64,000 nucleotides of DNA from a virus. Made by a program: the position numbers and the translations under genes. Positions 13,854 to 56,677 of this stretch are shown in pieces. Below the pieces are notes generated by a model. The model saw nothing but the letters and a program-made list of their open reading frames with translations, ran no database searches and had not been told where the DNA came from. The stretch's first letter is position 1. Each line of letters starts with the position of its first letter. The stretch covers positions 26,832-90,831 of IMG/VR virus record IMGVR_UViG_3300037804_000399; one strand, given 5' to 3'.

Positions 13854-13887
13854 GAAACCTGGAGTTTTTTTCTCCGGGTTTCTTTTT
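13854..13887 (+). terminator. Intrinsic terminator
   Basis: GAAACCTGGAG...CTCCGGGTTTC + T-run. Confidence 0.8.
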
Positions 13888-13894
13888 GTCTACG

Positions 13895-13902
13895 TATAAA
13901 TA
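13895..13902 (+). promoter_or_regulatory. T4-type late promoter
   Basis: TATAAATA upstream of the baseplate operon. Confidence 0.75.
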
Positions 13903-19400: not shown

Positions 19401-22400
19401 TGAACTTTATGATATCCATAAGAAATACATTGGTGTTTCAAAATCAAGATTGTTAGAAGGTGCTATTACAAAAGATCCTAGTACTGGAACATGGGACTTT
19501 GAAAATTTTGTTAGAGAAGTTGCTCACGAAGGATCACACCCTGCAGCAAACTATAAAAACTCACTTTACCCAACTATTCAACACCAACCATTCCTTTGGA
19601 ACTTGGTAGAAAAACTTGCGGTTGTTTTCCCTTCAGTATTGTTTACTGTATTAGTAGGAGAAGGTGAAGAAGTTTTAAACCGTTTAAGTCAAATAGATGA
19701 ATTTGGTAACTTGATTGACAGTTGGAAACATACTCACCAAGAGTTTATGTCATACCAAACTAGATATGAAGCTTCTACTAATACAGGAATTGCTTCAATA
19801 AGCGATCCGCAGATTGATAGAGATGGTCCATTTAATCCAGATGCGTTAAAAGAATTAATTAAATCAAATGCTGAACCTCTTTCAGATAAGAGTTCGTTCG
19901 GAAATGATTTTGTTGAAATCTTTAGAAATGATTATTACGGATACGCATCTGTGTTCTCAGATTTTTATTTCCTACAAGCTGAAAAAGCAAAGATTCAATT
20001 TCACTTGGATCGCATTGACGGTGTAAAAGAATTTGATATTGTTGGAATACCAACAGGAGATGAAGATTTATTTGGATTGAGAAATCAAAAGATCTTTCAA
20101 TTTGCTGCTGATCAAAATGAATATCACTATACCCTTTACAAAGATGTAAACATCAAAGATTGCCCTGGACAGCTTTGGGTTCGTTATAATAATTTCCCAT
20201 TCTCATTTCCAGTTGCTGTCGACCAAACAGATCTTATCACATATGATGATACATTAGTAAGTATTAATCAATTAGAAACTAGAGATGTTTCACTCGTAAA
20301 CGTTATGAATAACTGTTACGATTTTGGAATACAGCAAAACATTATTTGGGCACTTGGAGATAATCACGGCGAACTAACATGGACGGTTTTAAATGTTGGA
20401 TTTACTCTTAATGATGAAGTAAGAACATCTCTTTATACAATCATTAATAACGCAACACCTTATGTATTTTTAGAGAATGAACATTATGTTGGTACTCACT
20501 TTAATGGTGATACTATTATTCTTGTAATTTATAATGAAGAAACAAATAAATTTACAAATAAATATATTGATCTTATCGAATTAGTTTACTTACCTGACAG
20601 AACATATTCTGTAGGTGATGATATGAGATTCTTTAAAGATTCTGATGAAGCGCTTATCCAAGGACATGCTCTTTCAAATACTACAGTAAGAATTTGTCGT
20701 CCAGTTGATCTACCAACCACTCTTCCAGCTACAACTACTACTGAAGGACCAATTATTGTTGTTCCTCCTGCGACTACTCTTGGACCGACTACATTAGCAC
20801 CTCCTACCACATTAGCACCAACAACTACAGTGGGACCAACAACTACAGTGGGACCAACAACTACAACAACTATTTGTCCATCATTAAAAGAAGATCTATT
20901 TGTAAGATGGCAGTATCAATCTTCATATGTTCACGAACAACCTACTCCGAGAGATATAATTGTAAAGGTATATCGTGACCCACTAAGTACATTTACTGGA
21001 GCATTTTCAGTAGCTTATAATACATTAGATGAAGGTGATCCAGGTTCGCAGTGGCCAAGAACTCAATTTCCAGATACAGGCCCTTCAGCTGAGAAAATAA
21101 AAGATTACATACCTAAAGCAGATTTCATTTATTTTGCAGAAGGTCAAATGGAAGCGGAAGTAAAAATTACTATTCTTCCAAGTGCTCAACCAGAAAATGC
21201 AGAATATTTCTATATTAGAATGACTGATTTCTTATTCAACGATTGTTGTGAAGTTAATTCAAATGTGGTTGAACAGAATCCGCATATGATTTTAATAACA
21301 GATAGATGTTGCCCTTGTCCTGAAACTACTTCTACTACAAGTACATCTACTTCAACATCTACTTCAACAAGTACTTCAACAAGTACTTCAACATCTACAA
21401 GTACTTCAACATCTACTTCAACAAGTACAAGTACTTCAACAAGTACTTCAACAAGTACTTCAACAAGTACTTCAACAAGTACTTCAACAAGTACTTCAAC
21501 ATCTACAAGTACTTCAACAAGTACTTCTACATCTACAAGTACATCTACTTCTACATCTACAAGTACATCTACTTCTACTTCAACAAGTACATCTACTTCT
21601 ACATCTACTTCTACATCTACAAGTACATCTACATCTACTTCAACAAGTACATCTACTTCTACATCTACTTCTACATCTACAAGTACATCTACATCTACTT
21701 CAACAAGTACATCTACATCTACTTCTACTTCAACAAGTACATCTACTTCTACTTCAACAAGTACATCTACAAGTACATCTACTTCAACAAGTACTTCTAC
21801 ATCAACAAGTACATCTACTTCAACAAGTACCACAACACTAGCACCTACGACAAGTACCACAACAAGTACCTCTACTTCTACTACAAGTACATCAACATCT
21901 ACTTCAACAAGTACATCAACAAGTACAAGTACTTCAACAAGTACATCTACTTCAACATCTACTTCAACAAGTACTTCAACAAGTACATCTACTTCAACAT
22001 CTACTTCAACATCTACTTCAACAAGTACAAGTACTTCAACAAGTACCACAACACTAGCACCTACGACAAGTACAACTAGTACATCTACAACTAGTACATC
22101 TTCAACAAGTACATCTACTACGTTGCCACCAGTATTAAGTTGGAAGTATGTTCCATGTCCGACTACAACAAGTACTTCGACAAGTACTTCAACATCTACA
22201 AGTACAACTACACTTGCACCTACAACAAGTACTTCGACTTCGACTTCAACAAGTACTTCAACAAGTACTTCAACAAGTACTTCAACAAGTACTTCGACAA
22301 GTACAAGTACTTCAACATCTACAACTACACTTGCACCTACAACAAGTACTTCGACTTCAACAAGTACTTCGACAACTACATTAGCTCCTACAACTAGTAC

Positions 22401-23094
22401 GACTACGACTACAACGACTGGTGTACCTACAACAACAACTACTCCGGCTCCAATATTAAGCTATGAGTATGAAGAATGTTTTCCAGTTACAACAACTACT
22501 GCGGCTCCAACAACGACTCCGACTCCAACCACTAGTACAACATCTGCGCCGATGGGAGCAGTTGGAACTCCGAACGGTGATCCGACTATGTTGATAACTC
22601 TAAACTGGACTCCAGGTGACGCTACTAAAAACTATCTAGGAGAAAGCTGGACTCCTGGAGAGACAAAAATAGCTTATTCTTCTGATCCATATAGAAAAGG
22701 AGTTTACACTGGCGGAGCAACTATCGAATCAGAATTCTGGGGAATTAATGCAGCTGGTGTGAACAACGATAAATTTGTATTAGCAGCATTCATTTCTGCT
22801 GCAGCGGGATATAGACATTATGATAAAGTTCACTATGCTGCTGAAAATGCAAAGATTACAATAGGATCAAATTACACTTTTAATTCTGCACAAGCAAGTT
22901 CAAAAATATTATCCTTTACTCCTGAAGGAAATGCTTTTCCATTTGGAGGTCCGTGGGGTACAGCAATAAATACTGTCAGTAGTGGAATATTAGTAAATAT
23001 TGGCCAAGGATATATTCAACCTCTTCAGTTTTCTGGAATGGTTGCTCTAACAAACGGATTAACAATTTCATGGTCACAAGGAACTGGGTGGTAA
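16417..23094 (+). CDS. Giant baseplate protein (gp7-like N-terminal part) fused to Calx-beta, a mucin-like Ser/Thr stalk and a variable tip domain
   Basis: Follows gp6; HAIIGTNRAVE (KGT-like motif); Calx-beta-like SVAYNT...DY......FAEGQ....ITI...E.AE.F; long (TS)n tract. Confidence 0.65.
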   Translation: MVDKKGSDFNQGELLKKYINNPEWIRTYETLWNTLETSTQLVGAEIHEKTRNYVQNLRDIDLCETKALRSIVTELQVDNMEIVDALPKEIQRLVDIFSINPSLLLTDGMVFEDYMETFEAEVQAIYAKYFPTQFFLRQFEFDDAEVKWNNQPIEEFVDRYACKVVNIINKYKEESESDIDELDITNEMLFDSSEPRFYDSSDVDFVGTLEGVIQNTIADRLYDQFSTDIETGIYRQSISEDGDNPVFGDVFGFTWIVDDENFMKVQIKANIETIFKAFNDSVILGESYYVPFQVFTVTQLSITSGLILPEHVSKTYTRSKVILNGVATFIDDEDISEWMALIVRRFEDSSFFIDDAESKIESLEYVQFRQKFPPTVTEYINLVDPAATEIDESFVWDIIGLDPLNEERDVLYHECYAGKTMLDLFIIAQFTDTLYKHWLEESYQSLVENILDQNFEFGTDADYKYRGVYQIIGDDAKTELDALAPSQFEKDHYLITLTNEVEQFFVYNGLEWLEQCPFRDLDRITEAAAESLLDTCKRIRLQRNNLKEIAQRHAIIGTNRAVESVFTDYVLRSFTQLEDWEMTTVTDDRNWRLVGAITLQDYEQTAAGLYVDDDIKIGTYKRVLVANQYTDYVVFRSKQTSTLVATEIGLSDEFEFNTDSVYNLNDILPSLGTLDSKVKVIEYWDTTEYFNIEPTETKYLTGPINKRISMKDVVNITDDGDLEIAETGELVEFIEGQSKYQIFNQYLDKGNPQYWNDNKETNYSTSRENSINFSDEEVSERKRFMGSYSPIDLVFSAGLSRIETPGPLRSSDIQAGDYYDVNFTVPDFANTAYTAAQLAAVDANATNGLDAMDLIQQEAYYTNLYSSLDDQEIFDDGAQWILSYKRGDAEKAEGLTFDDAKDWDPENVLHQTYILKRARTKAIRFWGQGADINFMSFKFDNWFKISLEEWLINNQDKHMTQFWNDVGMKGDWEADIRPILDQYWNMHASSGYLDTELYDIHKKYIGVSKSRLLEGAITKDPSTGTWDFENFVREVAHEGSHPAANYKNSLYPTIQHQPFLWNLVEKLAVVFPSVLFTVLVGEGEEVLNRLSQIDEFGNLIDSWKHTHQEFMSYQTRYEASTNTGIASISDPQIDRDGPFNPDALKELIKSNAEPLSDKSSFGNDFVEIFRNDYYGYASVFSDFYFLQAEKAKIQFHLDRIDGVKEFDIVGIPTGDEDLFGLRNQKIFQFAADQNEYHYTLYKDVNIKDCPGQLWVRYNNFPFSFPVAVDQTDLITYDDTLVSINQLETRDVSLVNVMNNCYDFGIQQNIIWALGDNHGELTWTVLNVGFTLNDEVRTSLYTIINNATPYVFLENEHYVGTHFNGDTIILVIYNEETNKFTNKYIDLIELVYLPDRTYSVGDDMRFFKDSDEALIQGHALSNTTVRICRPVDLPTTLPATTTTEGPIIVVPPATTLGPTTLAPPTTLAPTTTVGPTTTVGPTTTTTICPSLKEDLFVRWQYQSSYVHEQPTPRDIIVKVYRDPLSTFTGAFSVAYNTLDEGDPGSQWPRTQFPDTGPSAEKIKDYIPKADFIYFAEGQMEAEVKITILPSAQPENAEYFYIRMTDFLFNDCCEVNSNVVEQNPHMILITDRCCPCPETTSTTSTSTSTSTSTSTSTSTSTSTSTSTSTSTSTSTSTSTSTSTSTSTSTSTSTSTSTSTSTSTSTSTSTSTSTSTSTSTSTSTSTSTSTSTSTSTSTSTSTSTSTSTSTSTSTSTSTSTSTSTSTSTSTSTSTSTSTSTSTSTSTSTSTSTSTSTSTSTSTSTSTSTTTLAPTTSTTTSTSTSTTSTSTSTSTSTSTSTSTSTSTSTSTSTSTSTSTSTSTSTSTSTSTSTSTSTSTSTTTLAPTTSTTSTSTTSTSSTSTSTTLPPVLSWKYVPCPTTTSTSTSTSTSTSTTTLAPTTSTSTSTSTSTSTSTSTSTSTSTSTSTSTSTSTTTLAPTTSTSTSTSTSTTTLAPTTSTTTTTTTGVPTTTTTPAPILSYEYEECFPVTTTTAAPTTTPTPTTSTTSAPMGAVGTPNGDPTMLITLNWTPGDATKNYLGESWTPGETKIAYSSDPYRKGVYTGGATIESEFWGINAAGVNNDKFVLAAFISAAAGYRHYDKVHYAAENAKITIGSNYTFNSAQASSKILSFTPEGNAFPFGGPWGTAINTVSSGILVNIGQGYIQPLQFSGMVALTNGLTISWSQGTGW
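21325..22440 (+). repeat. Low-complexity coding repeat for (Thr-Ser)n with TTTLAP spacers
   Basis: Mosaic of ACA/ACT with AGT/TCA/TCT codons; about 500 nt of nearly uninterrupted TS dipeptide to ~21830. Confidence 0.95.
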
Positions 23095-23095
23095 A

Positions 23096-24019
23096 ATGGC
23101 AGATTTATATTTAGATGCAGATTACGGAAACTTTATAAGACATTTAGGAATATGCTACATGTTAGAAGATCCTGACTTTGTAACCCCTCCGGACTTTGCA
23201 GGTCCACCAGACGAGGTTGGATTTACTGATTGTGATGATTGTGAATCAACTCCTATTACAACAACCACTCTCGGACCTACAACAAGTACTACACCAGCAC
23301 CATTGTCAATTGTAGGACCAGTTAACGGCGATGGAACAATGCTAATTAAATTAGAATGGACGTCAACTGCAGTTGCAAGTGTTTCTATAGCCAGTCCTTC
23401 TCAAATTACTACATCTGCTGTTCACAATTACGAAACAGGAGATTCGATTACTATTAGTGGAACAGATACTACGCCGTCAATAAACGGAACACATATAGTA
23501 ACAAAAATAGATGCTAACAACTTTACTATTCCAGTCAATGTTACTGCAGTAGTTTCTGGTGTAGGAGCAACTGAATTTGCAACTGTTCCATTTGTAGGAG
23601 GTAGTTGGACAAACGGCGAAACTAAAAAAGTTTATTCACAGGCAGGTGGGTATGTATATGAAACTAGTTATTATCCTTCAATTACCTCATACTCTGGATC
23701 AGCTGAAAGATGGGTAAGAGTGGTAAGCGGAGACACATTTAGAGTAGGAGGATTCGAAAAGCAATTAGGAACTTTCGCGGGTAAAATCAGTGACGGAAAT
23801 TTAATAGTCAAAGGATTGCATGGAGCAAATTTGTATATGGATAACTATACTAATGGATCATATGGATTTGCTGGCACTCCTACAAGTGATAATATAGCAA
23901 GTAAAGCACTGGCTGCTGCTGGTATCGTGAGAGGATTCCCATGTGGAGCTCCTCAAAAATCATCTTCATTCGTTACTACGCATGATATAACTATAACATG
24001 GTCTCCACAAGGATGGTAA
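23096..24019 (+). CDS. Putative appendage/adhesin protein (Cys N-module + variable tip domain)
   Basis: MADLYLDADYG...ICY...GPPD..F.DCDDC; ...SWTNGETK...ITWSPQGW. Confidence 0.55.
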   Translation: MADLYLDADYGNFIRHLGICYMLEDPDFVTPPDFAGPPDEVGFTDCDDCESTPITTTTLGPTTSTTPAPLSIVGPVNGDGTMLIKLEWTSTAVASVSIASPSQITTSAVHNYETGDSITISGTDTTPSINGTHIVTKIDANNFTIPVNVTAVVSGVGATEFATVPFVGGSWTNGETKKVYSQAGGYVYETSYYPSITSYSGSAERWVRVVSGDTFRVGGFEKQLGTFAGKISDGNLIVKGLHGANLYMDNYTNGSYGFAGTPTSDNIASKALAAAGIVRGFPCGAPQKSSSFVTTHDITITWSPQGW

Positions 24020-24020
24020 T

Positions 24021-24554
24021 ATGGCAGATTTAAAATTAGATGCGGATTACGGAAATGTTGTAAGACATAATGCAATCTGTTATATACTTGATAGAGTAGA
24101 GGCTGGCGTTGCTGACTTTGCAGGTCCACCAGAAGGAATTAATTTTGATGATTGTGACGAATGTCACAATGCACCATTTCCACCTATGTCACTTGTGACA
24201 TTAGAGCAAACAGGCGTTCTCGTTGAAGGCGACCCACTTGGTCAGCTAGTAGGTAATTTTGTTATAACTGGAGGAAAGTTTCCGTTTACCATTGCACTCA
24301 TAGTCGGAGTTGATGATGATGACAATGCACATTATCAGATTAACGGCAATGATCTCGAATTAAGTAACACTGGAGGAACCGTAACACCTTCAAGTTCTAT
24401 TAGAGTGGAAGTAACAGATGCTCTAGGTAATAAATTAGAATCAGTTATAACTGTAATTGTTGCTCCTATCTTAGGTACAAAAACTATTACATTAACACCA
24501 GGTGATAACTTATTTGATTATGATTTTAATGAACCAGTAGGAACATTAAACTAA
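24021..24554 (+). CDS. Putative appendage protein (Cys N-module + cadherin-like domain)
   Basis: MADLKLDADYG...ICY...CDEC; ALIVGVDDDDNAHYQINGNDL cadherin-like repeat. Confidence 0.55.
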   Translation: MADLKLDADYGNVVRHNAICYILDRVEAGVADFAGPPEGINFDDCDECHNAPFPPMSLVTLEQTGVLVEGDPLGQLVGNFVITGGKFPFTIALIVGVDDDDNAHYQINGNDLELSNTGGTVTPSSSIRVEVTDALGNKLESVITVIVAPILGTKTITLTPGDNLFDYDFNEPVGTLN

Positions 24555-24583
24555 TGAATACAATTAATAAAGGAATGGTATAA

Positions 24584-25564
24584 ATGGCTGATGTATATAG
24601 TATAGCACCAGATCCTCAAGGTTTAGGTAGAGATGTTGATAATTTAAAATTTAGCATAGAGATTCCAAATACATTAAATGTATCTGTAGCGGGACCTTAT
24701 CCAGCCGGCACTTATAAGGTTACGGTAAAAGTAGTTGATGATGTTACTATGGAATTTGGGTATGGATTTTTCAATGTAGTTATATATGCTTCCATTACAG
24801 ATTTTATACTTAATCAAACAAATACTCCTAACGAAGGAGATCCAATCAGTACCTTAATAGGTGACTTACAAGTTACTGGAGGAACCGCCCCTTTTGTTTT
24901 TGCACTAATAGCTGGATTTGGAGACGGAGACAATCCCCATTATCAAATAAATCTTGCGGATTTAGAACTAAGTGGTACTGGTGGATCTACAGAACCTACA
25001 GATTCAATTTACGCAAGAGTGACTGATGCAAATGGTGACGAAGCATTTGACAACTTTATTATAAACTTAGATGCTCCTGGTGCTCCATTAGCAACAATAG
25101 GAACTCCAAATGCTGACCCTACATTGTTTATTAAAGTAGAATCTGCAAATGCTGGAGGTACTGCATTATTTCCTTATAATTTCCTAGATGAAGATTTTAC
25201 TGACGGTGAAACAAAAGAAGTATATGGAACTTATGTTAATGTAGCTCTATTAAAATCTTGGACTATTGGAGCTGGTGATGATAGCGTCACAATAGCTGAT
25301 GATAAAGTAGTATCACCAGCATCATATACTGTTATAACTGCAAACTCCGCTAGTGAGAATCTTCGCCGAGGAAAAGACAACGGTGATTTTGTTTGGGGTG
25401 GATATTTTGCTCCAGATGCTAGTGTAAATGTAGTTAGTACTACCATCGTAGCTGCCACTCCTAATGATGTATTAGATGCTAGCAATTATGGCGAAGTTGT
25501 ATTTGACATTTCGGGTGGCGGGAATCATGTTAAAATAACAATAAGCGAAGGAAATGGTTGGTAA
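24584..25564 (+). CDS. Putative appendage protein (cadherin-like + variable tip domain)
   Basis: FALIAGFGDGDNPHYQIN; GTPNADPT...FTDGETK...ISEGNGW. Confidence 0.55.
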   Translation: MADVYSIAPDPQGLGRDVDNLKFSIEIPNTLNVSVAGPYPAGTYKVTVKVVDDVTMEFGYGFFNVVIYASITDFILNQTNTPNEGDPISTLIGDLQVTGGTAPFVFALIAGFGDGDNPHYQINLADLELSGTGGSTEPTDSIYARVTDANGDEAFDNFIINLDAPGAPLATIGTPNADPTLFIKVESANAGGTALFPYNFLDEDFTDGETKEVYGTYVNVALLKSWTIGAGDDSVTIADDKVVSPASYTVITANSASENLRRGKDNGDFVWGGYFAPDASVNVVSTTIVAATPNDVLDASNYGEVVFDISGGGNHVKITISEGNGW

Positions 25565-25579
25565 TCTGCCTTTGTGATG

Positions 25580-25607
25580 TAACAAACATTCCTCAATACT
25601 AGAATAT
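25580..25607 (+). promoter_or_regulatory. Class-2 promoter for sulfotransferase 1
   Basis: TAACAA-N16-GAATAT, matching the motif before the polymerase, gp55, gp47 and groEL genes. Confidence 0.5.
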
Positions 25608-25639
25608 AATTAAATTGTAAATGTATTGAGGAATAAAAA

Positions 25640-26770
25640 ATGATTATAGTAAGTGGATGCCCTAGATCTGGAACTAGTTTAACTATGGATATTCTTCGTA
25701 AGGCGACTGGCGAAGAGAACATGATTGCTTCAAAATTTCCACAGAAAAGAGAGTTAGAAATCACAAGAGGGGAGGACGAATCAGATAGTGATTTCCAAAT
25801 ACGAAATTATTTGTTTCAAAAATTCAAACGTCCAGATAGAGATGATGATTATACTGACATGAATCCAAACGGATTTTGGGAATGTAAATTTTCTGTATTA
25901 GGAGTCGGAGCTGAATACGGGTCAAGACTATTCAATTATCACTCTGCAAAGTTTACCGAAACACTATTAGACACTGGTAAAGATAAAATTTGTAAAATCG
26001 TAAGTCAAGGTTTAATGTCATCCGATGTAAGATATATTGATAAAGTAATTTATTTAATAAGACATCCTAGAAACGTTGCAAAATCTCATGAAAGATTAAA
26101 GAGAGGGTTTGATGTTAAAGTAAATGGCAAGAAGCAAAATATATTTGAAGGATTGACCATACACACTCCTGAGATGTATATAGGAGTTACCATTCAAGCT
26201 TGTAGATGGATTTTAGAAAATCCAACCGTGCCAATATTATTTGTTAACTTTGATGATTTGTTATCTAACCCAACTGAAACAATTGACACTATTGCAGAGT
26301 TTGTCGAGTTCGGAGATTTTGAAAAATCTAAAACTATTGTAGATCCAGTGTTGAATAGAAGTAAAATTCAAGACATCGAACATGTGCTTTGGGAAGATGC
26401 TGAATTTGTTTATGAACAGTTTAATAAACAAAACTATCAGGAAATATTAGATTACTTCGAAGATCCTACAAGAGCATATAGAAAATACACAGATAAATTT
26501 ATTTGCACTAGAACAAATGATGAAGTAACCAATCGTGATTGTCAGAGTTGTTTATCGAGTGACGTAGTCAAATACAATAAAAAAGTATTAGCCAATCACA
26601 AACAGATTGATTATTTAAAAGAACCTTGTATGTATGAATGCGGAAAGAATGTTGATACTGATTCATATAAAACCATTGAAGAAAGTATTAAAAACCATAC
26701 TTGGGATAATGGAAAGAAAATAATAGACGGAAAACTGGATGTTATTCCTAGTGGAAATACTTTAGGATAA
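25640..26770 (+). CDS. PAPS-dependent sulfotransferase with C-terminal Cys domain
   Basis: 5'-PSB loop SGCPRSGTS; NPNGFWE; 3'-PB YLIRHPRNVAKS; FDDLLSNP. Confidence 0.85.
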   Translation: MIIVSGCPRSGTSLTMDILRKATGEENMIASKFPQKRELEITRGEDESDSDFQIRNYLFQKFKRPDRDDDYTDMNPNGFWECKFSVLGVGAEYGSRLFNYHSAKFTETLLDTGKDKICKIVSQGLMSSDVRYIDKVIYLIRHPRNVAKSHERLKRGFDVKVNGKKQNIFEGLTIHTPEMYIGVTIQACRWILENPTVPILFVNFDDLLSNPTETIDTIAEFVEFGDFEKSKTIVDPVLNRSKIQDIEHVLWEDAEFVYEQFNKQNYQEILDYFEDPTRAYRKYTDKFICTRTNDEVTNRDCQSCLSSDVVKYNKKVLANHKQIDYLKEPCMYECGKNVDTDSYKTIEESIKNHTWDNGKKIIDGKLDVIPSGNTLG

Positions 26771-26885
26771 TATTTTTAGGATATGGTTAATATATTCAAA
26801 GAATAATAAGTAAATAAGGATACTGTAACAATATTTTTGGAATACTTATGACTCGAGAATATATTAACCACATGGACAAATTATA

Positions 26886-29800
26886 ATGGCAAATATTTAT
26901 TTAGATACTGATACTCACGGAGAGTATATAAAACATAATGATATTTGTTACAAGCGTGTAGGTCCGAGTACCACTGAGCCAGCAACTGTATTTGGAGCTC
27001 CTGATGAGACTGGATTTGCAGATTGTGACGATTGTGAGTTTGATCCCCCTGTATTCTTCGGAGAGTTTGATTATGAAACTGAAGAAGAAGGAAGTCTCAC
27101 TGCATTTACTGCTACCGCTACCGATACTGACACATATGAAATAATAGAACAACGAGATGAAGCCTTTTTTAACATAAATCCTGTAACTGGAGAAATAGTA
27201 TGGAAAACCGCTCCCGATTTTGATGACGCTAGAGATGAAAATTACGACAACAATTATGTTCTTAGAATACGAGCAACTGGACCAGGTGGACAAACTTTTC
27301 AATTTTATTCTGTTACAGTAACCAATATTTCAGAATTACCTGAATTTTATGGACCATCTACAAGGGAAAGATTTGATGGTTATGATGAAGGAATGACAAT
27401 TACAGCACACGATACAACTTCTTTTTCTATGATAGGCGGAGAAGACATTTCCAAATTTTCGTTAGATCCCACAACGGGCGTTTTAACATTTCTAGCAATA
27501 CCTGATTTTGCTTCCCCTGGTGATTTTGATGCAGATAATGAATATCATGTAACTGTAAGAGCAACGGGACCTGGTGGGTTTGCTGACAGAAACTTTACGA
27601 TATTTATAAGTGAATTTCCAACGGCTAGATGTACTGAATACGGAGCTGATGATATATTAGGAAATTTACCAACTAACACACATCCAACGATAGACTATAA
27701 AATAGAAGGAATGAATTTAGCTGGTGATAAATGGGTTGCTCAATTTGCGAGACTGATGTGTGATAGTAATGGAGTACAGGCTGGAAGATGGTATTCAGTA
27801 AAAGCAAATAGAGGTGCAAGCGGGACCCTAGTTTTCGACACTAACTATATAGAAACAAACTTACGACACCGCTGGACTACAGTAGCTGTTTCTAGTTTAG
27901 GATTTGGAGACGAAGACGTTGGACAATTTTACTTCGATATAGACAAAGATTCTGCAACCATTTTTATGGTGGTAAATTATGGTCTAATTAGACAAGGAAT
28001 ACGTTTCTCTTCTACTTGGAGATCTAATGATTACAAGGATGTCTTTAATCTAGATGGAAATTGGCAACACAGTTTTGATTCTTTAGGAACAAGCGCAACA
28101 TTAATTTCATCAACATGGGATAACTACAATTCTGGAGTGTCTGCTTTAGGAGTACAAGCACCGACAGGAGATTGGACGAATACTGCAACACCAACTTACA
28201 TTGAAGATCAAAAGATAACAGATGCTATGTTCGGAGAAATTGTATTTGACATAGGCTCATCGGGATTTGCCAGTCCGATAAGAGTAAAACTTTCAACTAG
28301 ACGTGGTACAGGAATAAATCCTGATTGGAATGATGTTCCAGCTCCTGTTGCTCCTGAAATAATTGGACCAACAAAATACGTAGTAAATGATGGAGTAATG
28401 CCAGCATTTCAAGTGAATGTAAAGGATAGAACATTTGAACCCACTTATACAATATCCGGTGGAGCCGATGCTGCTCTATTTACTGTTGACGCTAGAGGAT
28501 TTGTAAATTTTAAAGTAGCTACTAATTATTCAGCACCTACTGATGCTGGCGCAAATAACAAATATGATCTTCAAATTACAGCTACAAATGATCAAGGAGC
28601 TGATTCAGAAACTTATGAAATCACTGTTATAGGAGTATCTGGTGTAGTTGGTCCGATACAAACTCTTAATTTTTCTGGTTCGGGAACAACTGATCCAACT
28701 AGTTTAGACAATACAGTATTTGTAAAGTATGTTGGTGGTGGTGGAGAAGGTGTTTCTGCTTTTAATAAAACGTGGAACTCGGGTCAGTTAGGACATGTAT
28801 TTGTTGATTATACAGATGCTAGTCCAAATGGAGAATCCATTGCTATTTCAATTGGTGACTCTGTATTGAACATTTCTGATTTAAGTGATACTGCAATAAT
28901 AGAATTTACAGTACGTGCTGGGTTGACTTTGGACTTAGAAAAGATTTTAGCTCCTTTAGCTGATAATGATACTTCAGTGGGAGTTGAATCTCACACTTTA
29001 GATTTTACATATAATGATTCTATTTCAGATCAGTTTGGTAGAGTTACATTTACAAACGGAGAAGTGTGGGAATTTTTAAGAGGAAGTAATTGGCCTGCTC
29101 CGACAGCGCCAGTATTCACAGGAGCCACAGCTCATAGTCTTACAACAGGATATTCCAATCCGTTCACTGCCACTGCAAATCCAAATACTTATGATCTAAA
29201 TTTTGCAATAACAGGTGGAGCAGATGCAGCTGTGTTTAATATCACATATGACGGCACAGTTACTTTTATAGTTCCTCCTGATTTTTCAGCACCAATAGAT
29301 GCGGGTGCAAATAATGTTTATGATTTGGAAATCACTGCTACTAATGAAACAGGATCCACTGTACAAGCCTTTACTGTGACTGTGAATGATTTTACATTAC
29401 CAGTTTTTAATGGTCCTTTTGCATTGAACGTAGATGAAGAACAAACAGATATTTTGACAGTTGATGTTCAATTTAATGATTATCCTCCTACTTTTTCAAT
29501 AGTTAGTGGAGTGGATGAAGCTCTATTTGCGGTTGATAATATAACTGGTGTGGTTACATTTATAGCAGCTCCTGACTTTTTAACTCCGTTAGATGTTGGT
29601 GCTAATAATGTTTATGATTTTGAAGTTACAGCAACTAATCCTGCAGGTGATCAGACTCAAGCTTATGTTATAACAGTTGATCAATTACCATTGCCTGTTT
29701 TTACAGGAACGTTTATTCTTGAAATATCGGAAGGGTCAGCAGCTTTTACAGCAGTAGCTACTAACACTCCAACGTTTGCTATAACTGGAGGATTGGATCA

Positions 29801-30323
29801 ATCCTTATTTGATATTGTACCAGCTACTGGAGTTGTAACATTCTCACCAGCAGTATTATTTGCTTCACCTACTGACAATGGTGCTAACAATGTATATGAT
29901 GTTGAAATAACAGCAACTAATTTAGGCGGTTCAGTTGCTCAAGCATACGCGATAACTATTAGAGATCCAGCTTTAGTTCAAGAGATAGGAATAGAAATCG
30001 CAGGAGATCCACATGCTGAGATTACTTGGTCTTGGTCTGACGCTGCTGCAACAAAAGATTGGTTAGGTGAGACTTGGTCCAACGGAGAAACTAAACTAGT
30101 ACATGATGAATTTGCAGGAGCAAATGCTTCAGGATTTTACAGAGGTAATTATTCAGTAGGAAGCATTTATGTTGGCGGCTCGGTAAATGCAACATCTGGA
30201 AATATATTTGCTTATGGATCATCAATTGGATTTATGTCTGGTTATGGTAATTTAAATACAGGAGTTGTGTTAGTATCTGGTACAAATACAATGACATTAT
30301 TGATGAAAGCATCATTAACTTAA
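26886..30323 (+). CDS. Large adhesin-like fibre: Cys N-module, six cadherin-like repeats, three variable tip-type domains
   Basis: Repeats of GG.DA..F.I...TG.V.F...PDF..P.D.GANN.YD..ITATN; N-terminal ICY...CDDC. Confidence 0.7.
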   Translation: MANIYLDTDTHGEYIKHNDICYKRVGPSTTEPATVFGAPDETGFADCDDCEFDPPVFFGEFDYETEEEGSLTAFTATATDTDTYEIIEQRDEAFFNINPVTGEIVWKTAPDFDDARDENYDNNYVLRIRATGPGGQTFQFYSVTVTNISELPEFYGPSTRERFDGYDEGMTITAHDTTSFSMIGGEDISKFSLDPTTGVLTFLAIPDFASPGDFDADNEYHVTVRATGPGGFADRNFTIFISEFPTARCTEYGADDILGNLPTNTHPTIDYKIEGMNLAGDKWVAQFARLMCDSNGVQAGRWYSVKANRGASGTLVFDTNYIETNLRHRWTTVAVSSLGFGDEDVGQFYFDIDKDSATIFMVVNYGLIRQGIRFSSTWRSNDYKDVFNLDGNWQHSFDSLGTSATLISSTWDNYNSGVSALGVQAPTGDWTNTATPTYIEDQKITDAMFGEIVFDIGSSGFASPIRVKLSTRRGTGINPDWNDVPAPVAPEIIGPTKYVVNDGVMPAFQVNVKDRTFEPTYTISGGADAALFTVDARGFVNFKVATNYSAPTDAGANNKYDLQITATNDQGADSETYEITVIGVSGVVGPIQTLNFSGSGTTDPTSLDNTVFVKYVGGGGEGVSAFNKTWNSGQLGHVFVDYTDASPNGESIAISIGDSVLNISDLSDTAIIEFTVRAGLTLDLEKILAPLADNDTSVGVESHTLDFTYNDSISDQFGRVTFTNGEVWEFLRGSNWPAPTAPVFTGATAHSLTTGYSNPFTATANPNTYDLNFAITGGADAAVFNITYDGTVTFIVPPDFSAPIDAGANNVYDLEITATNETGSTVQAFTVTVNDFTLPVFNGPFALNVDEEQTDILTVDVQFNDYPPTFSIVSGVDEALFAVDNITGVVTFIAAPDFLTPLDVGANNVYDFEVTATNPAGDQTQAYVITVDQLPLPVFTGTFILEISEGSAAFTAVATNTPTFAITGGLDQSLFDIVPATGVVTFSPAVLFASPTDNGANNVYDVEITATNLGGSVAQAYAITIRDPALVQEIGIEIAGDPHAEITWSWSDAAATKDWLGETWSNGETKLVHDEFAGANASGFYRGNYSVGSIYVGGSVNATSGNIFAYGSSIGFMSGYGNLNTGVVLVSGTNTMTLLMKASLT

Positions 30324-30335
30324 TAGGAAAATGAA

Positions 30336-31226
30336 ATGATTGTAGTAACAGGAACTCCTCGTAGTGGAACTTCATTAGCAATGTTATCATTGGCAAAGTT
30401 AATTGGCAAAGATAAAATAGTAGGAGATAAGTTCCCTCAGAAAAAGAAAGCTCAAAATGCTGCCGAACGATATGTATATGAATTGAAGAATAATAATAAC
30501 TTGAACCCTACAGGGTTTTGGGAAAATTTAAAGTATATATCCAATGGATTTTCATATTCATCAGAAAATGAAAAAGAGTTTTATAAACTATCGACATCCT
30601 CTGATCATGCTGTTAAAATAATTGCTACTGGGTTACCAAAAACAGAACCAAAGTATATTGACAAGTTAGTCATCTGTTTGAGAGATCCTCTTGAAACTGC
30701 AACATCACAAACCGGACTTGTTGGACAAATTGGTCCAAGTGAAGCTGACCCTAAAAAACAAATCTTTGATTTAATAACGATTGCAAAATATATGATAGTA
30801 AATCCAAAGGTTGATTACTTTCTGCTGAATTATTCAGATCATAAGATAAATGCAAAATACACTATGGAACAATTAAGTGCATTTGTAGAAGTACCTTATA
30901 AGGAAAGCATTTACAAGGCCACTGGAAAGAAAACAATGAAGCGTCCCGATACAAAAATTTGGGACGAAGCATTTTACATTTACAATTTAATGATACAGGA
31001 AAATTTTCAAGCAGTGTGTGATTATTCCAATGATGTTACAACTGAGCTATCAAGACAAACAAAATCTTGGTTTTGTCCAAAGTTTGATTTTTTAACTAAT
31101 GATGATCGATGTAATACGTGTAGAAGCAATAGCAAGGTAAGAGAAAACTTTATTAAAAAAGCAAATCACAATAAACATGATCATGAAAACGAACCATGTT
31201 ACTTGGATCTATTAGAACAGGAGTAG
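30336..31226 (+). CDS. Second PAPS-dependent sulfotransferase (paralogue of 25640)
   Basis: TGTPRSGTS; NPTGFWE; ICLRDPLETATS; same C-terminal Cys spacing. Confidence 0.85.
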   Translation: MIVVTGTPRSGTSLAMLSLAKLIGKDKIVGDKFPQKKKAQNAAERYVYELKNNNNLNPTGFWENLKYISNGFSYSSENEKEFYKLSTSSDHAVKIIATGLPKTEPKYIDKLVICLRDPLETATSQTGLVGQIGPSEADPKKQIFDLITIAKYMIVNPKVDYFLLNYSDHKINAKYTMEQLSAFVEVPYKESIYKATGKKTMKRPDTKIWDEAFYIYNLMIQENFQAVCDYSNDVTTELSRQTKSWFCPKFDFLTNDDRCNTCRSNSKVRENFIKKANHNKHDHENEPCYLDLLEQE

Positions 31227-31229
31227 TAA

Positions 31230-31727
31230 ATGAATTGGATTTACACATACAAAGCGCAAATATTACAAAAACTTCCACAGTTTGATTCAAATTATGATGA
31301 GATAGAAAAGAAGATTCAGAAAGCTGACTGTCCTAGATGTGTAAAGACTCGATATGAATTAAAACTGAAAAGACAAGTTTCTCAATCTATGAAACCTGGA
31401 ATGTTTCCTCCACAACTCGAACAACTTCTAGCAGCTTACAATCCTTCATATGGACAAAAGAATAAAATCAAAACAGTAAGTCTCAAACCAGAAGAGATTT
31501 CAATACTCGATGAACGAAAAGGATGTATTGATTGCGTTAGAAAACATATGAGCCAGGCAATAATTTTACTTCGTGAATGTAATCAAGGGTATGGTACAGA
31601 CGAATTTGAGCACAAGTGGTTAGCTGTAGGTCATTTAGCCGAAGCAGCTGATGAAGCGTTGCAAATAAATCCAGCATTGAGTATGAAGATTAGAGATCTC
31701 AGATTAATGATCATGGAACAAGAATGA
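31230..31727 (+). CDS. Cys/His-rich hypothetical protein (putative metal-binding helical domain)
   Basis: CPRC; CIDCVRKH..QA..L..E...GY....H..LAVGHLAEAADE. Confidence 0.55.
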   Translation: MNWIYTYKAQILQKLPQFDSNYDEIEKKIQKADCPRCVKTRYELKLKRQVSQSMKPGMFPPQLEQLLAAYNPSYGQKNKIKTVSLKPEEISILDERKGCIDCVRKHMSQAIILLRECNQGYGTDEFEHKWLAVGHLAEAADEALQINPALSMKIRDLRLMIMEQE

Positions 31728-31924
31728 ATACATCTCCTGAAGTAATAAGAATTGCAATACAAATATTAAGATCTACATGTCAATTTAAACAAATAGGTCC
31801 TTATAACCAACCTATAATTGAAATTCAAAACACGTTAAAAACAATTCACGGCAACGATCTAACAGTATCAGAAGAAACTTTAACTCAACTAAAAGACATT
31901 AGTGACGCTATTGGTAATAAATAA
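31724..31924 (+). CDS. Small hypothetical protein
   Basis: ATGA overlap with the upstream gene. Confidence 0.5.
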   Translation: MNTSPEVIRIAIQILRSTCQFKQIGPYNQPIIEIQNTLKTIHGNDLTVSEETLTQLKDISDAIGNK

Positions 31925-37419: not shown

Positions 37420-37470
37420 ATACTATAGAGAGAATCACAAGTGCGTTTCCAATCACATTGGAGATTAAGA

Positions 37471-38043
37471 ATGGCTAGAAAAAGACACATATACTACGTT
37501 GGCAAAGAAGAATTGATGAGTGAGTTACGACTTTTCAATGAATCAATGGCAAAAGATCCACAAAATATAGGTACTGCTACTGAAGAACTTGGAGAAATGT
37601 TATTAAAGATTGCTACTAGGTATGCTACTCGTCCAAACTTTTGGCGATATTCGTTCCGAGAAGATTTTGTAAACGAAGCAATCTTTAGAATGGTTAAAAA
37701 CCTTCACAAAATAGATTTAAATCACCCGAAGTGTAATCCATTTAGTTACTTGACTATGATTTGTCATAATGTATTCATATTTTGGATCATGAAATCGAAG
37801 AAACATGAGAAAGCAAAACTAGAAATAGCAAGAGAACACCTTATCGATCTGGAATACATGAATGATATTGATAGGTCTCAACAATTACAAATTTTAGATG
37901 AAATTGAAACTGCTCAATTTGGTGAGAATGAAAAACGAGAAATGAAAACACCGAGAGCAAAGAAATTAGCAGATGCTAAGAAAGCTAAAGCAGAAGCAAA
38001 GGCAAAAGAAGAAGCAGAATCAACACCATCAAAAGAAAAATAA
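37471..38043 (+). CDS. 55: Late-transcription sigma factor (T4 gp55-like)
   Basis: YV.KEEL...LGEMLLKIA......PNF..YSFRED...NPFSYLT.I..N.F; start 37471 after GGAG. Confidence 0.9.
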   Translation: MARKRHIYYVGKEELMSELRLFNESMAKDPQNIGTATEELGEMLLKIATRYATRPNFWRYSFREDFVNEAIFRMVKNLHKIDLNHPKCNPFSYLTMICHNVFIFWIMKSKKHEKAKLEIAREHLIDLEYMNDIDRSQQLQILDEIETAQFGENEKREMKTPRAKKLADAKKAKAEAKAKEEAESTPSKEK

Positions 38044-55919: not shown

Positions 55920-56189
55920 ATGTCAGATGATGAAACAAAAGAATCTGTAACTGAAACAGATAAAAGTGTTGCAAGAGTAACACCGATGTTTTTACTGTTC
56001 TCTATATTTCTAGTATTAAAATTAACAGAAGTTATAGATTGGTCATGGTGGTTCGTCACAGCACCTTTATGGATTCCAAGCGCAATCATAATTTCGGTAC
56101 TCTCACTTATAGTTGCAGTGGTGTTAACAGTTATCGTGGTAGTATTATTAATCATAGCATGTAGAAAGGTGTTGAAAGCATGTCAGTAA
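55920..56189 (+). CDS. Small membrane protein
   Basis: LKLTEVIDWSWWFVTAPLW motif flanked by TM segments. Confidence 0.65.
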   Translation: MSDDETKESVTETDKSVARVTPMFLLFSIFLVLKLTEVIDWSWWFVTAPLWIPSAIIISVLSLIVAVVLTVIVVVLLIIACRKVLKACQ

Positions 56190-56677
56190 CGTTTTGGTTT
56201 ACTGGACTACCGTGTTCAGGCAAGACATCAATTGCTGATGCTATCCATGAAGTATTTCCAGAATTTGTAAGGTTAGACGGAGATGTTATACGGAAAGGAA
56301 TTTGTTCCGATCTAACATTCTCTGATAAAGATAGAGTTGAAAACATTCGTCGGATTGCTCACATATGTCAATTATTCAATGATAACAAGTCAATAGTACT
56401 ATCTTCGTTCGTCAGTCCTACTAAAAGCATTCGTGATCAAATTAAAAATATTGTAGACAATGTGATTATCGTTCATGTTGACTGTAGTGTTGAAGAATGC
56501 GAACGGAGAGATGTAAAGGGAATGTGGAAACAGGCTCGTGAAGGGAAGATTAAAAACTGGACCGGTATAGATAGTCCGTATGAAACGCCCGTGGACTGCG
56601 ATTTCTACATCAACACAGAGCAAGAAACATTAAAAGAAAGTGTGTCAAAGTTCTTACAAAAGTATTTAATGATGTGA
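56180..56677 (+). CDS. cysC: Adenylyl-sulfate (APS) kinase
   Basis: WFTGLPCSGKTSIA, LDGD..R, DRVENIRR, FVSP, RDVKG, TGIDSPYE.P. Confidence 0.93.
   Translation: MSVTFWFTGLPCSGKTSIADAIHEVFPEFVRLDGDVIRKGICSDLTFSDKDRVENIRRIAHICQLFNDNKSIVLSSFVSPTKSIRDQIKNIVDNVIIVHVDCSVEECERRDVKGMWKQAREGKIKNWTGIDSPYETPVDCDFYINTEQETLKESVSKFLQKYLMM

What the first reader, a model, noticed from the sequence alone, without database searches (positions are those of the whole stretch)
20700..31924. Candidate phage virion-sulfation system: mucin-like stalk, adhesins and two sulfotransferases in the baseplate operon, with phage-encoded APS kinase
Seen: two paralogous sulfotransferases (25640, 30336; intact PRSGTS and R.P...S PAPS-binding motifs) are interleaved with fibre/adhesin genes. 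They lie right after a baseplate protein carrying several hundred Ser/Thr residues, and an intact cysC sits at 56180. Established: CysC makes PAPS, the donor for these enzymes. Inference: the phage O-sulfates its own stalk or adhesins (directly on Ser/Thr or on attached glycans), producing a polyanionic mucin/sulfated-polysaccharide mimic. That could stiffen the stalk, resist proteases, or bait a host that binds sulfated glycans.
Basis: partly seen in the sequence, partly recalled or inferred. Interest (0 to 1): 0.92.

Follow-up and report, generated by a model that had tools for sequence, protein, structure and literature searches.

The report
Phage sulfotransferase module beside tail-fibre genes
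An uncultured giant phage carries two sulfate-transferring enzymes among its tail-appendage genes; relatives in about 77 other phage loci sit beside Ser/Thr-rich or shared tip-domain proteins and sometimes a PAPS-making kinase, so phages may sulfate their own tail fibres, a virion modification not yet described.

Summary
ORFs 25640-26770 (ST1) and 30336-31226 (ST2) are paralogous PAPS-type sulfotransferases with intact PAPS-binding motifs. They lie in a tail operon that starts at a gp6-like baseplate gene. A 2225-aa protein there carries a 393-residue tract that is 88% Ser+Thr. An intact APS kinase (cysC) sits at 56180.

This family (sulfotransferase domain plus a C-terminal 4-Cys domain) is essentially virus-restricted. 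In 77 dereplicated loci, 21 hold long poly-Ser/Thr ORFs. A further 25 hold a previously unnamed ~190-aa C-terminal "N2" tip domain, of which the window has four copies. In 80 control baseplate loci with the same ORF count, neither feature occurs (Fisher 6e-8 and 2e-9). cysC is the only recurrent enzymatic neighbour, directly adjacent in 5 loci. Glycosyltransferases are rare.

My best reading (about 0.5) is that the enzyme sulfates the phage's own appendage proteins before assembly. The acceptor is unproven: it could be Ser/Thr, Tyr or the N2 domain. Poly-Ser/Thr is not a universal partner. Modification of host surface glycans remains a serious rival. No member occurs in a cultured phage, and no paper found describes virion sulfation.

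The parts
13854..13902 (+). Terminator-like hairpin (13854-13882) followed by a T4-type late-promoter-like TATAAATA (13895-13902), marking the start of the tail operon
   Evidence: The phage encodes a gp55-like late sigma factor at 37441-38043. No comparably strong terminator was found up to 32.5 kb.
13937..16405 (+). gp6-like baseplate wedge subunit (822 aa)
   Evidence: phrog_219 E 5.9e-28; 41% identity to the gp6-like gene of L110
16417..23094 (+). Giant appendage protein (2225 aa): unassigned N-terminal 1500 aa, Thr/Pro linker, (Thr-Ser)n tract, C-terminal N2 domain
   Evidence: No PHROG, Pfam or PDB sequence match for the N-terminal part, so the baseplate role is positional only.
21286..22464 (+). 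Poly-Thr/Ser tract (residues 1624-2016; 88% S+T; mixed codons), punctuated by short Cys/Tyr-containing motifs
   Evidence: The antisense ORF 21210-22049 is a repeat artefact.
22504..23091 (+). N2 tip domain, copy 1 (C-terminus of the giant protein)
   Evidence: family HMM E 2.6e-47; alignment A3
23096..24019 (+). 307-aa protein: shared N-terminal motif, short Thr-rich linker, N2 domain (copy 2)
24021..24554 (+). 177-aa protein with the same N-terminal motif as ORFs 23096 and 26886; no N2 domain
   Evidence: no Pfam or PHROG match
24584..25564 (+). 326-aa protein ending in an N2 domain (copy 3)
   Evidence: HMM E 3.5e-28
25640..26770 (+). ST1: sulfotransferase domain (residues 1-263) plus C-terminal 4-Cys domain (about 264-355)
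26886..30323 (+). 1145-aa cadherin-domain adhesin-like protein with the shared N-terminal motif and a C-terminal N2 domain (copy 4)
   Evidence: Pfam Cadherin E 7.6e-15; N2 E 3.6e-15
30336..31226 (+). ST2: divergent paralogue of ST1, starting 12 nt after the adhesin gene
31230..31727 (+). 165-aa 4-Cys protein, recurrent downstream partner of the sulfotransferase (also in L010, L025, L046)
56180..56677 (+). cysC, APS kinase (165 aa), about 25 kb downstream among topoisomerase II, chaperonin and dUTPase genes

Best explanation
ST1 and ST2 belong to a virus-specific family of cytoplasmic, PAPS-dependent sulfotransferases. The family combines a sulfotransferase domain with a conserved C-terminal 4-Cys domain. 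It travels as part of a tail-appendage module.

Proposed mechanism:
1. The enzyme is made together with the late structural proteins.
2. Using PAPS, it puts sulfate esters on the phage's own appendage proteins before they are assembled. PAPS comes from the host or, in some phages including this one, from a phage APS kinase acting on host APS.
3. The likely acceptors are hydroxyl groups in the Ser/Thr-rich linkers and/or in the conserved frame of the N2 tip domain that follows them. That frame includes a nearly invariant Tyr.
4. The result would be negatively charged fibres or tips.

Shown here: enzyme family membership, gene order, the comparative association and the restriction to viruses.
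Inferred: that the enzyme is active, that the neighbouring proteins are its substrates, which residue is modified, and what the charge is for.
For: (1) Enzyme:
- ST1 passes Pfam thresholds and both paralogues keep the 5'-PSB and 3'-PB motifs.
- Invariant across the family are R9/S10/G11/T12/S13, E81, K119, R141 and S149.
- In the AF2 model (pLDDT 80.7), 17 of the 18 best structural matches are sulfotransferases (Z 6.3-8.3 over residues 1-263).
- There is no signal peptide or membrane segment at the N-terminus.

(2) Context:
- The window operon starts at gp6 with a terminator plus TATAAATA.
- Homologues lie downstream of gp6-like or tape-measure genes.
- They are co-oriented with the upstream neighbour in 58 of 64 loci and the downstream neighbour in 52 of 65, with median gaps of 18 and -1 nt.

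(3) Partners:
- 77 dereplicated loci hold 33 long poly-S/T ORFs (in 21 loci) and 34 N2-domain ORFs (in 25 loci) among 812 non-sulfotransferase ORFs.
- 80 control baseplate loci with 812 ORFs hold none (Fisher 6e-8 and 2e-9).
- Partners cluster within 2 genes of the enzyme: N2 25 observed against 11.7 expected (0 of 10000 permutations); poly-S/T 20 against 13.3 (35 of 10000).
- In four whole contigs, every poly-S/T ORF lies within 3 genes of the enzyme.
- Partner labels are scattered over all clades of the enzyme tree.
- Short S/T tracts often lie directly in front of the N2 domain: 10 of 34 N2 proteins against 11 of 812 controls.

(4) Donor supply:
- APS kinase ties with DUF6171 as the most frequent Pfam family among 150 neighbours (5 each; GT2 only 3).
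- It is directly adjacent in L010, L016, L036, L094 and L098.
- APS kinase is otherwise rare in phages, in 9 of 50,697 records.
- The own contig has no PAPS reductase or ATP sulfurylase.

(5) Virus restriction:
- One locus was found in 185,579 species genomes, and it carries two N2 ORFs upstream of the enzyme.
- By contrast there are 115 metagenome loci and 25 IMG/VR loci.

(6) C-terminal domain: shorter distant relatives that lack the 4-Cys domain have neither partner nearby.
Against: - There is no biochemical or proteomic evidence. The acceptor is inferred from gene neighbourhood only.
- 13 of 40 well-covered loci show neither partner by my criteria. Long poly-S/T occurs in only 21 of 77 loci, so it is not the universal substrate.
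- Tail-fibre neighbourhoods also harbour morons and genes that modify host surfaces.
- I found no known enzyme that O-sulfates Ser/Thr in proteins; a 2026 review treats the responsible enzymes as an open question.
- cysC is adjacent in only 5 of 77 loci and present in 5 of 25 viral contigs. A contig rated 100% complete (G002) has none.
- Fold matches are moderate (Z <= 8.3, Foldseek E >= 4.8e-3).
- The N2 model is poor (pLDDT 59). Nothing shows that N2 or the giant protein is in the virion.
- Gene calls are crude longest-ORF calls.
- The control loci are not matched for lineage or habitat and are not dereplicated.
Confidence: 0.5

Rival explanations
1. The enzyme sulfates a host envelope glycan or its cytoplasmic precursor (LPS, capsule, S-layer glycan) during infection. 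This would mask or alter the receptor, either excluding superinfection or letting progeny escape cell debris. The gene rides with receptor-binding genes because the two co-evolve.
For: - The enzyme sits beside hypervariable tip-domain genes that look like receptor-binding proteins.
- Bacterial carbohydrate sulfotransferases such as NodH and Stf0 are cytoplasmic PAPS enzymes (my own knowledge). Stf0, Stf1 and Stf9 appear among the fold matches (Z 5.2-6.9).
- cysC co-carriage fits any PAPS-consuming reaction.
Against: - The enzyme is 35-60% identical across phages of very different tail types and presumably different hosts. That suggests a conserved acceptor that travels with the phage rather than diverse host glycans.
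- The specific link to poly-S/T tracts is not expected under this model.
- The family is almost absent from cellular genomes.
- Tight operonic spacing directly after fibre genes resembles fibre-accessory genes.
Confidence: 0.2
2. The Ser/Thr tracts are first O-glycosylated, by host or phage glycosyltransferases, and the enzyme then sulfates the sugars. This would give a true sulfated-mucin mimic.
For: - Long Ser/Thr tracts are classic O-glycosylation substrates (my own knowledge).
- Phage virion glycosylation is reported for mycobacteriophages (papers found).
- GT2 genes are present near the enzyme in 3 loci.
- Heparan-sulfate sulfotransferases are among the fold matches.
Against: - Glycosyltransferases are rare neighbours (3 of 150).
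- No GT1 or GT2 was found in the 90.8-kb contig, which is only 35% of the genome.
- Many loci have N2 proteins without any S/T tract.
Confidence: 0.1
3. The enzyme is an auxiliary metabolic or anti-defence gene that sulfates a small molecule (metabolite, signal or antibiotic). Its place among fibre genes is incidental.
For: - Sulfotransferases have been listed as viral auxiliary metabolic genes without a defined role (PMC8290583).
- The best sequence and fold matches include small-molecule enzymes such as SULT1A, StaL and the olefin-synthase sulfotransferase.
- Other sulfotransferase families exist in cyanophages.
Against: - The position in tail modules is conserved across unrelated phages. 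The statistical association with two specific protein partners argues against an incidental location.
- The family is virus-restricted rather than host-derived.
Confidence: 0.08
4. The protein no longer works as an enzyme. It serves as a fibre assembly factor or as a structural part of the appendage.
For: - It sits immediately downstream of fibre-like genes, the position where tail-fibre chaperones typically lie (my own knowledge).
- It has an extra Cys-rich domain of unknown role.
Against: - All PAPS-binding and candidate catalytic residues are invariant across about 200 clusters at 50% identity.
- Repeated adjacency of APS kinase makes sense only if PAPS is consumed.
Confidence: 0.05

Closest known systems
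Tyrosylprotein sulfotransferases (TPST1/2; bacterial RaxST)
   Same: Both are PAPS-dependent enzymes that sulfate proteins. The 5'-PSB loop uses Arg (PRSGT-type) rather than the Lys of cytosolic SULTs (TPST motif recalled from my own knowledge). An invariant Glu and an invariant Lys are available as base and transition-state partner. TPST structures are among the top fold matches (Z 7.5-7.7, 18% identity).
   Different: There is no detectable sequence match to TPST. The phage enzyme is cytoplasmic and soluble, not Golgi- or membrane-anchored. It has an added 4-Cys C-terminal domain. The acceptor is unknown, and its partners are rich in Ser/Thr rather than acidic Tyr motifs.
Cytosolic and natural-product sulfotransferases (Pfam Sulfotransfer_1: SULT1A, StaL, CurM/OLS sulfotransferase domains)
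   Same: These give the best sequence and fold matches. They share the PAPS-binding motifs.
   Different: Identity is only 13-19%. The His catalytic base of SULTs is not evident. The phage family is virus-restricted and embedded in tail modules.
Phage-encoded virion glycosylation (mycobacteriophages)
   Same: The concept is the same: a phage enzyme decorates its own structural proteins in the cytoplasm before assembly (papers found; details from my own knowledge).
   Different: The chemistry differs (sulfate, not sugar), as do the enzyme family and the target proteins (tail appendages with S/T linkers and N2 tips). Nothing has been shown experimentally here.
Serine-rich repeat adhesins and mucin-like proteins
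   Same: Both have very long Ser/Thr tracts acting as extended stalks that present a terminal binding domain.
   Different: Those are secreted and O-glycosylated by dedicated glycosyltransferases. Here there is no secretion signal and glycosyltransferases are rare. The similarity is in composition only.
Viral cysC / cysH 'sulfur auxiliary metabolic genes'
   Same: The phage carries an APS kinase of the ordinary CysC family.
   Different: Here cysC comes without PAPS reductase or ATP sulfurylase on the contig. In five other phages it abuts the sulfotransferase. That points to PAPS as a sulfuryl donor rather than to sulfur assimilation.

Membership tests
PAPS-dependent sulfotransferase superfamily (Pfam Sulfotransfer_1 / Sulfotransfer_3) | Profile match above the curated threshold | tested here: met
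   ST1: PF00685 32.7 bits (cut-off 22) and PF13469 28.7 bits (cut-off 27). ST2 has no Pfam hit at E<=0.01 but matches ST1 at E 2e-37.
PAPS-dependent sulfotransferase superfamily (Pfam Sulfotransfer_1 / Sulfotransfer_3) | 5'-phosphosulfate-binding loop and 3'-phosphate-binding R...S motif | tested here: met
   ST1 has PRSGTS at 8-13 and RHPRNVAKS at 141-149. ST2 has PRSGTS at 8-13 and RDPLETATS at 116-124. These positions are invariant or nearly invariant in alignment A1.
PAPS-dependent sulfotransferase superfamily (Pfam Sulfotransfer_1 / Sulfotransfer_3) | Sulfotransferase fold | tested here: met
   The AF2 model has pLDDT 80.7. 17 of the 18 best of 48,161 chains are sulfotransferases, Z 6.3-8.3 over residues 1-263. 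The Z values are moderate.
PAPS-dependent sulfotransferase superfamily (Pfam Sulfotransfer_1 / Sulfotransfer_3) | Sulfuryl transfer from PAPS to an acceptor | not testable with these tools
   Needs an enzyme assay.
Tyrosylprotein sulfotransferase (TPST/RaxST-like) | Sequence or fold closer to TPST than to other sulfotransferases | tested here: inconclusive
   TPST chains score Z 7.5-7.7, tied within 1 Z unit with small-molecule and glycan sulfotransferases. No TPST appears in the sequence search.
Tyrosylprotein sulfotransferase (TPST/RaxST-like) | Tyr acceptor in an acidic context | not tested
   N2 has a nearly invariant Tyr. The giant protein has a Y-E-Y-E-E motif inside the tract. No test was possible.
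APS kinase (CysC) | Full-length APS_kinase profile match and P-loop | tested here: met
   PF01583 166.1 bits (cut-off 21.1), covering positions 2-151 of 152. The P-loop G-L-P-C-S-G-K-T-S is present.
T4 gp6-type baseplate wedge | Profile match of ORF 13937-16405 | tested here: met
   phrog_219 E 5.9e-28.
T4 gp7-type baseplate protein (for the giant ORF) | Sequence similarity to known baseplate proteins | tested here: inconclusive
   No PHROG, Pfam or PDB match. There is only a 66-residue similarity to the gene that follows gp6 in related phages.
Cadherin-domain adhesin (ORF 26886-30323) | Cadherin repeat profile match | tested here: met
   PF00028 55.5 bits (cut-off 28.8).

The most novel reading that the evidence does not exclude
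This is a phage-specific protein O-sulfotransferase that directly sulfates Ser/Thr tracts (and possibly a conserved Tyr of the N2 tip) on tail appendages. That would be the first post-translational sulfation of a bacteriophage virion. It would also be the first identified enzyme for the rarely detected sulfo-Ser/sulfo-Thr modification. Phage cysC would then be re-read as a donor-supply gene rather than a sulfur-assimilation gene.
Probability: 0.25. Interest if true: 0.93.

Novelty: new variant of a known kind. Interest (0 to 1): 0.8.

Why it matters
- If phages sulfate their own fibres, that adds a new chemical layer to phage-host recognition. It would affect charge, stiffness, protease resistance, or mimicry of sulfated polymers.
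- It would give a concrete candidate enzyme for Ser/Thr (or bacterial-world Tyr) protein sulfation, whose enzymes are an open question (PMC13514629).
- It would change how viral cysC and 'sulfotransferase AMGs' are interpreted in metagenomes.
- Even without the mechanism, the work defines three things:
  - a virus-restricted enzyme family of about 200 clusters at 50% identity;
  - a new tail-tip domain (N2);
  - a conserved gene module that can be taken straight to expression and mass spectrometry.

Tried and rejected
I therefore could not read the 257-kb contig that holds the identical ST1, or the contexts of database hits.
- Complex prediction (sulfotransferase plus N2 domain) was unreachable in six tries, so no docking result exists.

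**Searches that found nothing**
- Megablast and tblastn of the region and of ST1 against 50,697 phage records found nothing.
- A single-sequence pattern scan of IMG/VR found nothing. The alignment-based scan did find loci.
- Pfam and PHROG searches gave nothing for the N2 proteins, the poly-S/T proteins, the giant N-terminus or ORFs 31957, 33781 and 36549.
- PDB sequence searches of the giant N-terminus and ORF 31957 gave nothing.
- The ESM Atlas gave no usable hit for an N2 protein.
- Literature searches for phage or virion sulfation found no relevant paper.

**Weak or low-confidence results**
- The N2 structure model was too poor (pLDDT 59) to search with.
- Foldseek against PDB and BFVD gave only weak sulfotransferase matches.
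- The sigma-70 promoter scan was at chance level.

**Readings considered and rejected**
- The antisense ORF 21210-22049 is not a gene; it is a repeat artefact.
- The idea that ST genes are host-derived AMGs is rejected, because only one locus was found in 185,579 species genomes.

Full report
**1. Where the window lies**

The window is bases 26832-90831 of a 90.8-kb IMG/VR virus record, estimated 35% complete. An identical ST1 protein is on record on a 257-kb contig. The phage has T4-type replication and late-transcription genes:
- a family-B DNA polymerase;
- a gp6-like baseplate wedge;
- a gp55-like late sigma factor;
- gp46/47-like nuclease, primase and topoisomerase II.

Its polymerase is only about 28% identical to any phage in a 50,697-record collection. 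It is therefore a distant, uncultured lineage.

**2. The observation**

*ST1 (25640-26770).*
- It passes the Pfam thresholds for Sulfotransfer_1 and Sulfotransfer_3.
- It shows PRSGTS and RHPRNVAKS.

*ST2 (30336-31226).*
- It has no Pfam hit.
- It is a paralogue of ST1 (28% identity, E 2e-37).
- It keeps every residue that is invariant in the family.

*Fold.*
- An AlphaFold model of ST1 built on a 23-sequence alignment has pLDDT 80.7.
- Against 48,161 PDB representatives, 17 of the 18 best matches are sulfotransferases (Z 6.3-8.3, residues 1-263).
- These include olefin-synthase ST, StaL, TPST1/2, NDST and SULTs. All are tied within about 1 Z unit, so the fold does not reveal the acceptor class.
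- Residues 264-355 form a separate, confidently modelled domain with four invariant cysteines.

*The giant ORF (16417-23094).*
- It carries a 393-residue tract of 88% Ser+Thr in mixed synonymous codons.
- Its baseplate role rests only on its position after gp6.

*cysC (56180-56677).*
- It is a full-length APS kinase.
- It lies among topoisomerase, chaperonin and dUTPase genes.

*Operon structure.*
- A strong terminator-like hairpin and a TATAAATA motif lie just upstream of gp6.
- No comparable terminator follows for 18 kb.
- This is consistent with the sulfotransferases being part of a late tail operon.

**3.

Four proteins of the region end in the same ~190-aa domain, which I call N2:
- the giant protein;
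- ORF 23096;
- ORF 24584;
- the cadherin-domain protein 26886-30323, which lies between ST1 and ST2.

N2 has a conserved N-terminal frame (D-P ... G-E-T-W ... C-P-x-x-Y ... W), a variable core, and a conserved end (F-G ... G-x-T-x-x-W-x-x-G-x-G-W) at the very C-terminus. It has no Pfam, PHROG or Atlas match. Its model is confident only in the conserved frame.

**4. The comparative test**

*Size and distribution of the family.*
- ST1 has 304 database relatives at 40-61% identity. Nearly all come from metagenomes.
- A profile search finds 198 clusters (50% identity) at E<=1e-30 among 1.84 billion representatives.
- Pattern scans with the family alignment gave 25 IMG/VR loci, 115 metagenome loci (80 kept) and only one locus in 185,579 species genomes.
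- That single locus has two N2 ORFs directly upstream of the enzyme.
- No member occurs in the collection of mostly cultured phages.

*Partner counts.*
- After dereplication at 90% identity there are 77 loci.
- With a simple longest-ORF gene call, 21 loci contain 33 ORFs with a long poly-Ser/Thr tract (a 40-residue window with at least 70% S+T).
- 25 loci contain 34 N2-domain ORFs.
- Among the 40 loci with at least three upstream genes, 27 have one or both.

*Control.*
- I fetched 80 loci around gp6-like baseplate genes (1.02 Mb, 812 ORFs).
- They contain no family member, no long poly-S/T ORF and no N2 domain. The best N2 E-value there is 1.9.
- Fisher tests give 6e-8 for poly-S/T and 2e-9 for N2.

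*Position within loci.*
- Partners cluster next to the enzyme. For N2, 25 of 34 lie within two genes against 11.7 expected (0 of 10,000 permutations).
- For poly-S/T, 20 of 33 lie within two genes against 13.3 expected (35 of 10,000).
- In four contigs read whole (24-58 ORFs), every poly-S/T ORF lies within three genes of the enzyme.
- In a fifth contig (238 ORFs), one of four is adjacent.

*Phylogenetic spread.*
- The partner labels are scattered through all clades of the enzyme tree, so this is not one inherited arrangement.

*Short tracts.*
- Short S/T tracts frequently sit directly in front of the N2 domain.
- They occur in 10 of 34 N2 proteins against 11 of 812 control ORFs.

*Tail context.*
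- gp6-like genes lie upstream in L013, L015 and L022.
- Tape-measure genes lie upstream in L016 and L023.
- The enzyme is co-oriented with its neighbours, with median gaps of 18 and -1 nt.

**5. Donor supply**

- A Pfam tally was made over 150 immediate neighbours. APS kinase and DUF6171 (a small Cys-rich protein, phrog_13558) are the most frequent families, at five each.
- Family-2 glycosyltransferases appear three times.
- APS kinase abuts the enzyme in L010, L016, L036, L094 and L098.
- It is present in 5 of 25 viral contigs, against 9 of 50,697 phage records overall.
- The own contig has no ATP sulfurylase, PAPS reductase, GT1 or GT2, although it covers only a third of the genome.
- From established pathway knowledge, an APS kinase without PAPS reductase points to PAPS as a sulfuryl donor. 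It would be most useful in hosts that reduce APS directly and make little PAPS. This step is inference.

**6. Interpretation**

*Best-supported reading.* A virus-specific sulfotransferase acts on the proteins encoded beside it, in the cytoplasm, before tail assembly. The arguments are:
- the enzyme is highly conserved while the fibre genes around it turn over;
- it is restricted to viruses;
- it sits where fibre-accessory genes sit;
- its two recurrent protein partners are physically joined in many proteins (linker then N2);
- relatives without the 4-Cys domain lack both partners.

*Which residue is modified is open.*
- The Arg-type PRSGT loop and the invariant Glu and Lys resemble the catalytic set of tyrosylprotein sulfotransferases. 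I recall that set from memory and did not test it. N2 has a nearly invariant Tyr.
- Against that, the ST2 clade (window ST2, L026, L027, L029) is flanked by poly-Ser proteins without N2. That favours Ser/Thr as acceptor for at least that clade.

*Main rival.* The main rival is sulfation of host surface glycans, linked to receptor-binding genes by co-evolution. I cannot exclude it. The conservation of the enzyme and the poly-S/T link speak against it.

*The glycan-on-fibre variant.* This is weakened by the scarcity of glycosyltransferases.

**7. Novelty**

- Sulfotransferase genes have been listed in viromes as auxiliary metabolic genes (PMC8290583).
- Other sulfotransferase families are annotated in cyanophages.
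- I found no paper on sulfation of phage virions or on this family.
- Sulfo-Ser and sulfo-Thr are regarded as rarely detected, and a 2026 review treats the responsible enzymes as an open question (PMC13514629).
- Known peptide sulfotransferases of bacteria act on Tyr (PMC11143521).
- The enzyme is a new family within a known superfamily. The module (enzyme, N2 or S/T-tract proteins, small Cys-rich proteins, optional cysC) is new. The proposed function would be a new kind of virion modification.

**8. Limits**

- Everything beyond gene content and neighbourhood is inference.
- Gene calls are crude.
- The control set is one tail-module sample, not lineage-matched.
- Many loci are short fragments.
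- Earlier notes of this scan on the same stretch are first-reader notes only. They agree on the variable tip domains and the mixed-codon tract, both of which I checked independently.

Noticed in passing
window 23096-23250, 24021-24170, 26886-27040: Three appendage ORFs (23096, 24021, 26886) begin with the same ~50-residue motif: M-A-D/N-L/I-Y-L-D ... I-C-Y ... G-P/A-P-D/E-E ... D-C-D-D/E-C-E. It may be a common docking module that attaches interchangeable branches to one site.
   Followed up: no
window 53992-55620: The phage encodes a GroEL/Cpn60-type chaperonin (PF00118, E 2e-59), two ORFs upstream of cysC.
   Followed up: no
L005:9519-9935 and eight other dereplicated loci: A small Cys-rich protein (weak DUF6171 match, phrog_13558) sits within one or two genes of the sulfotransferase in most of 9 dereplicated loci and never in the controls. 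Its role is unknown.
   Followed up: partly
window 31230-31727; L010:2771-3448; L025:10963-11649: A second small 4-Cys protein family recurs directly downstream of the sulfotransferase (after cysC in L010).
   Followed up: partly
L016:3987-11652: This is the most compact form of the module, in a siphovirus-like contig: tape measure, two tail genes, N2, N2, sulfotransferase, APS kinase, all in a row. It is a good candidate for expression work.
   Followed up: partly
window 13937-16405: The gp6-like protein is 822 aa, against 617-623 aa in its closest relatives (L110-L114). The extra ~200 residues are inserted around positions 470-690.
   Followed up: no
L111-L114, gene after gp6 (e.g. L111:11842-15273): In the nearest relatives, gp6 is followed by an 1143-aa protein with no S/T tract, no N2 and no sulfotransferase. 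Only 66 residues of it resemble the N-terminus of the window's giant protein.
   Followed up: partly
window 5433, 12947, 13895, 43292, 49058, 58196 (+ strand): All six plus-strand TATAAATA motifs lie in short gaps just upstream of ORFs, although the total count is at chance level. They are plausible T4-type late promoters.
   Followed up: partly
window 35600-35700 (ORF 33781-36537): A short D-S-F-Q / D-S-C-Q tandem peptide repeat lies inside a 918-aa protein of unknown function.
   Followed up: no
window 60335-61543: A DUF2201 putative metallopeptidase plus VWA-like domain protein lies in the replication/metabolism region.
   Followed up: no
phage record LR756500.1 (462 kb), 112824-113300: An uncultured jumbo phage carries a full-length cysC (46% identity to the window's) but no detectable member of this sulfotransferase family. 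Phage cysC is therefore not tied to this family alone.
   Followed up: partly
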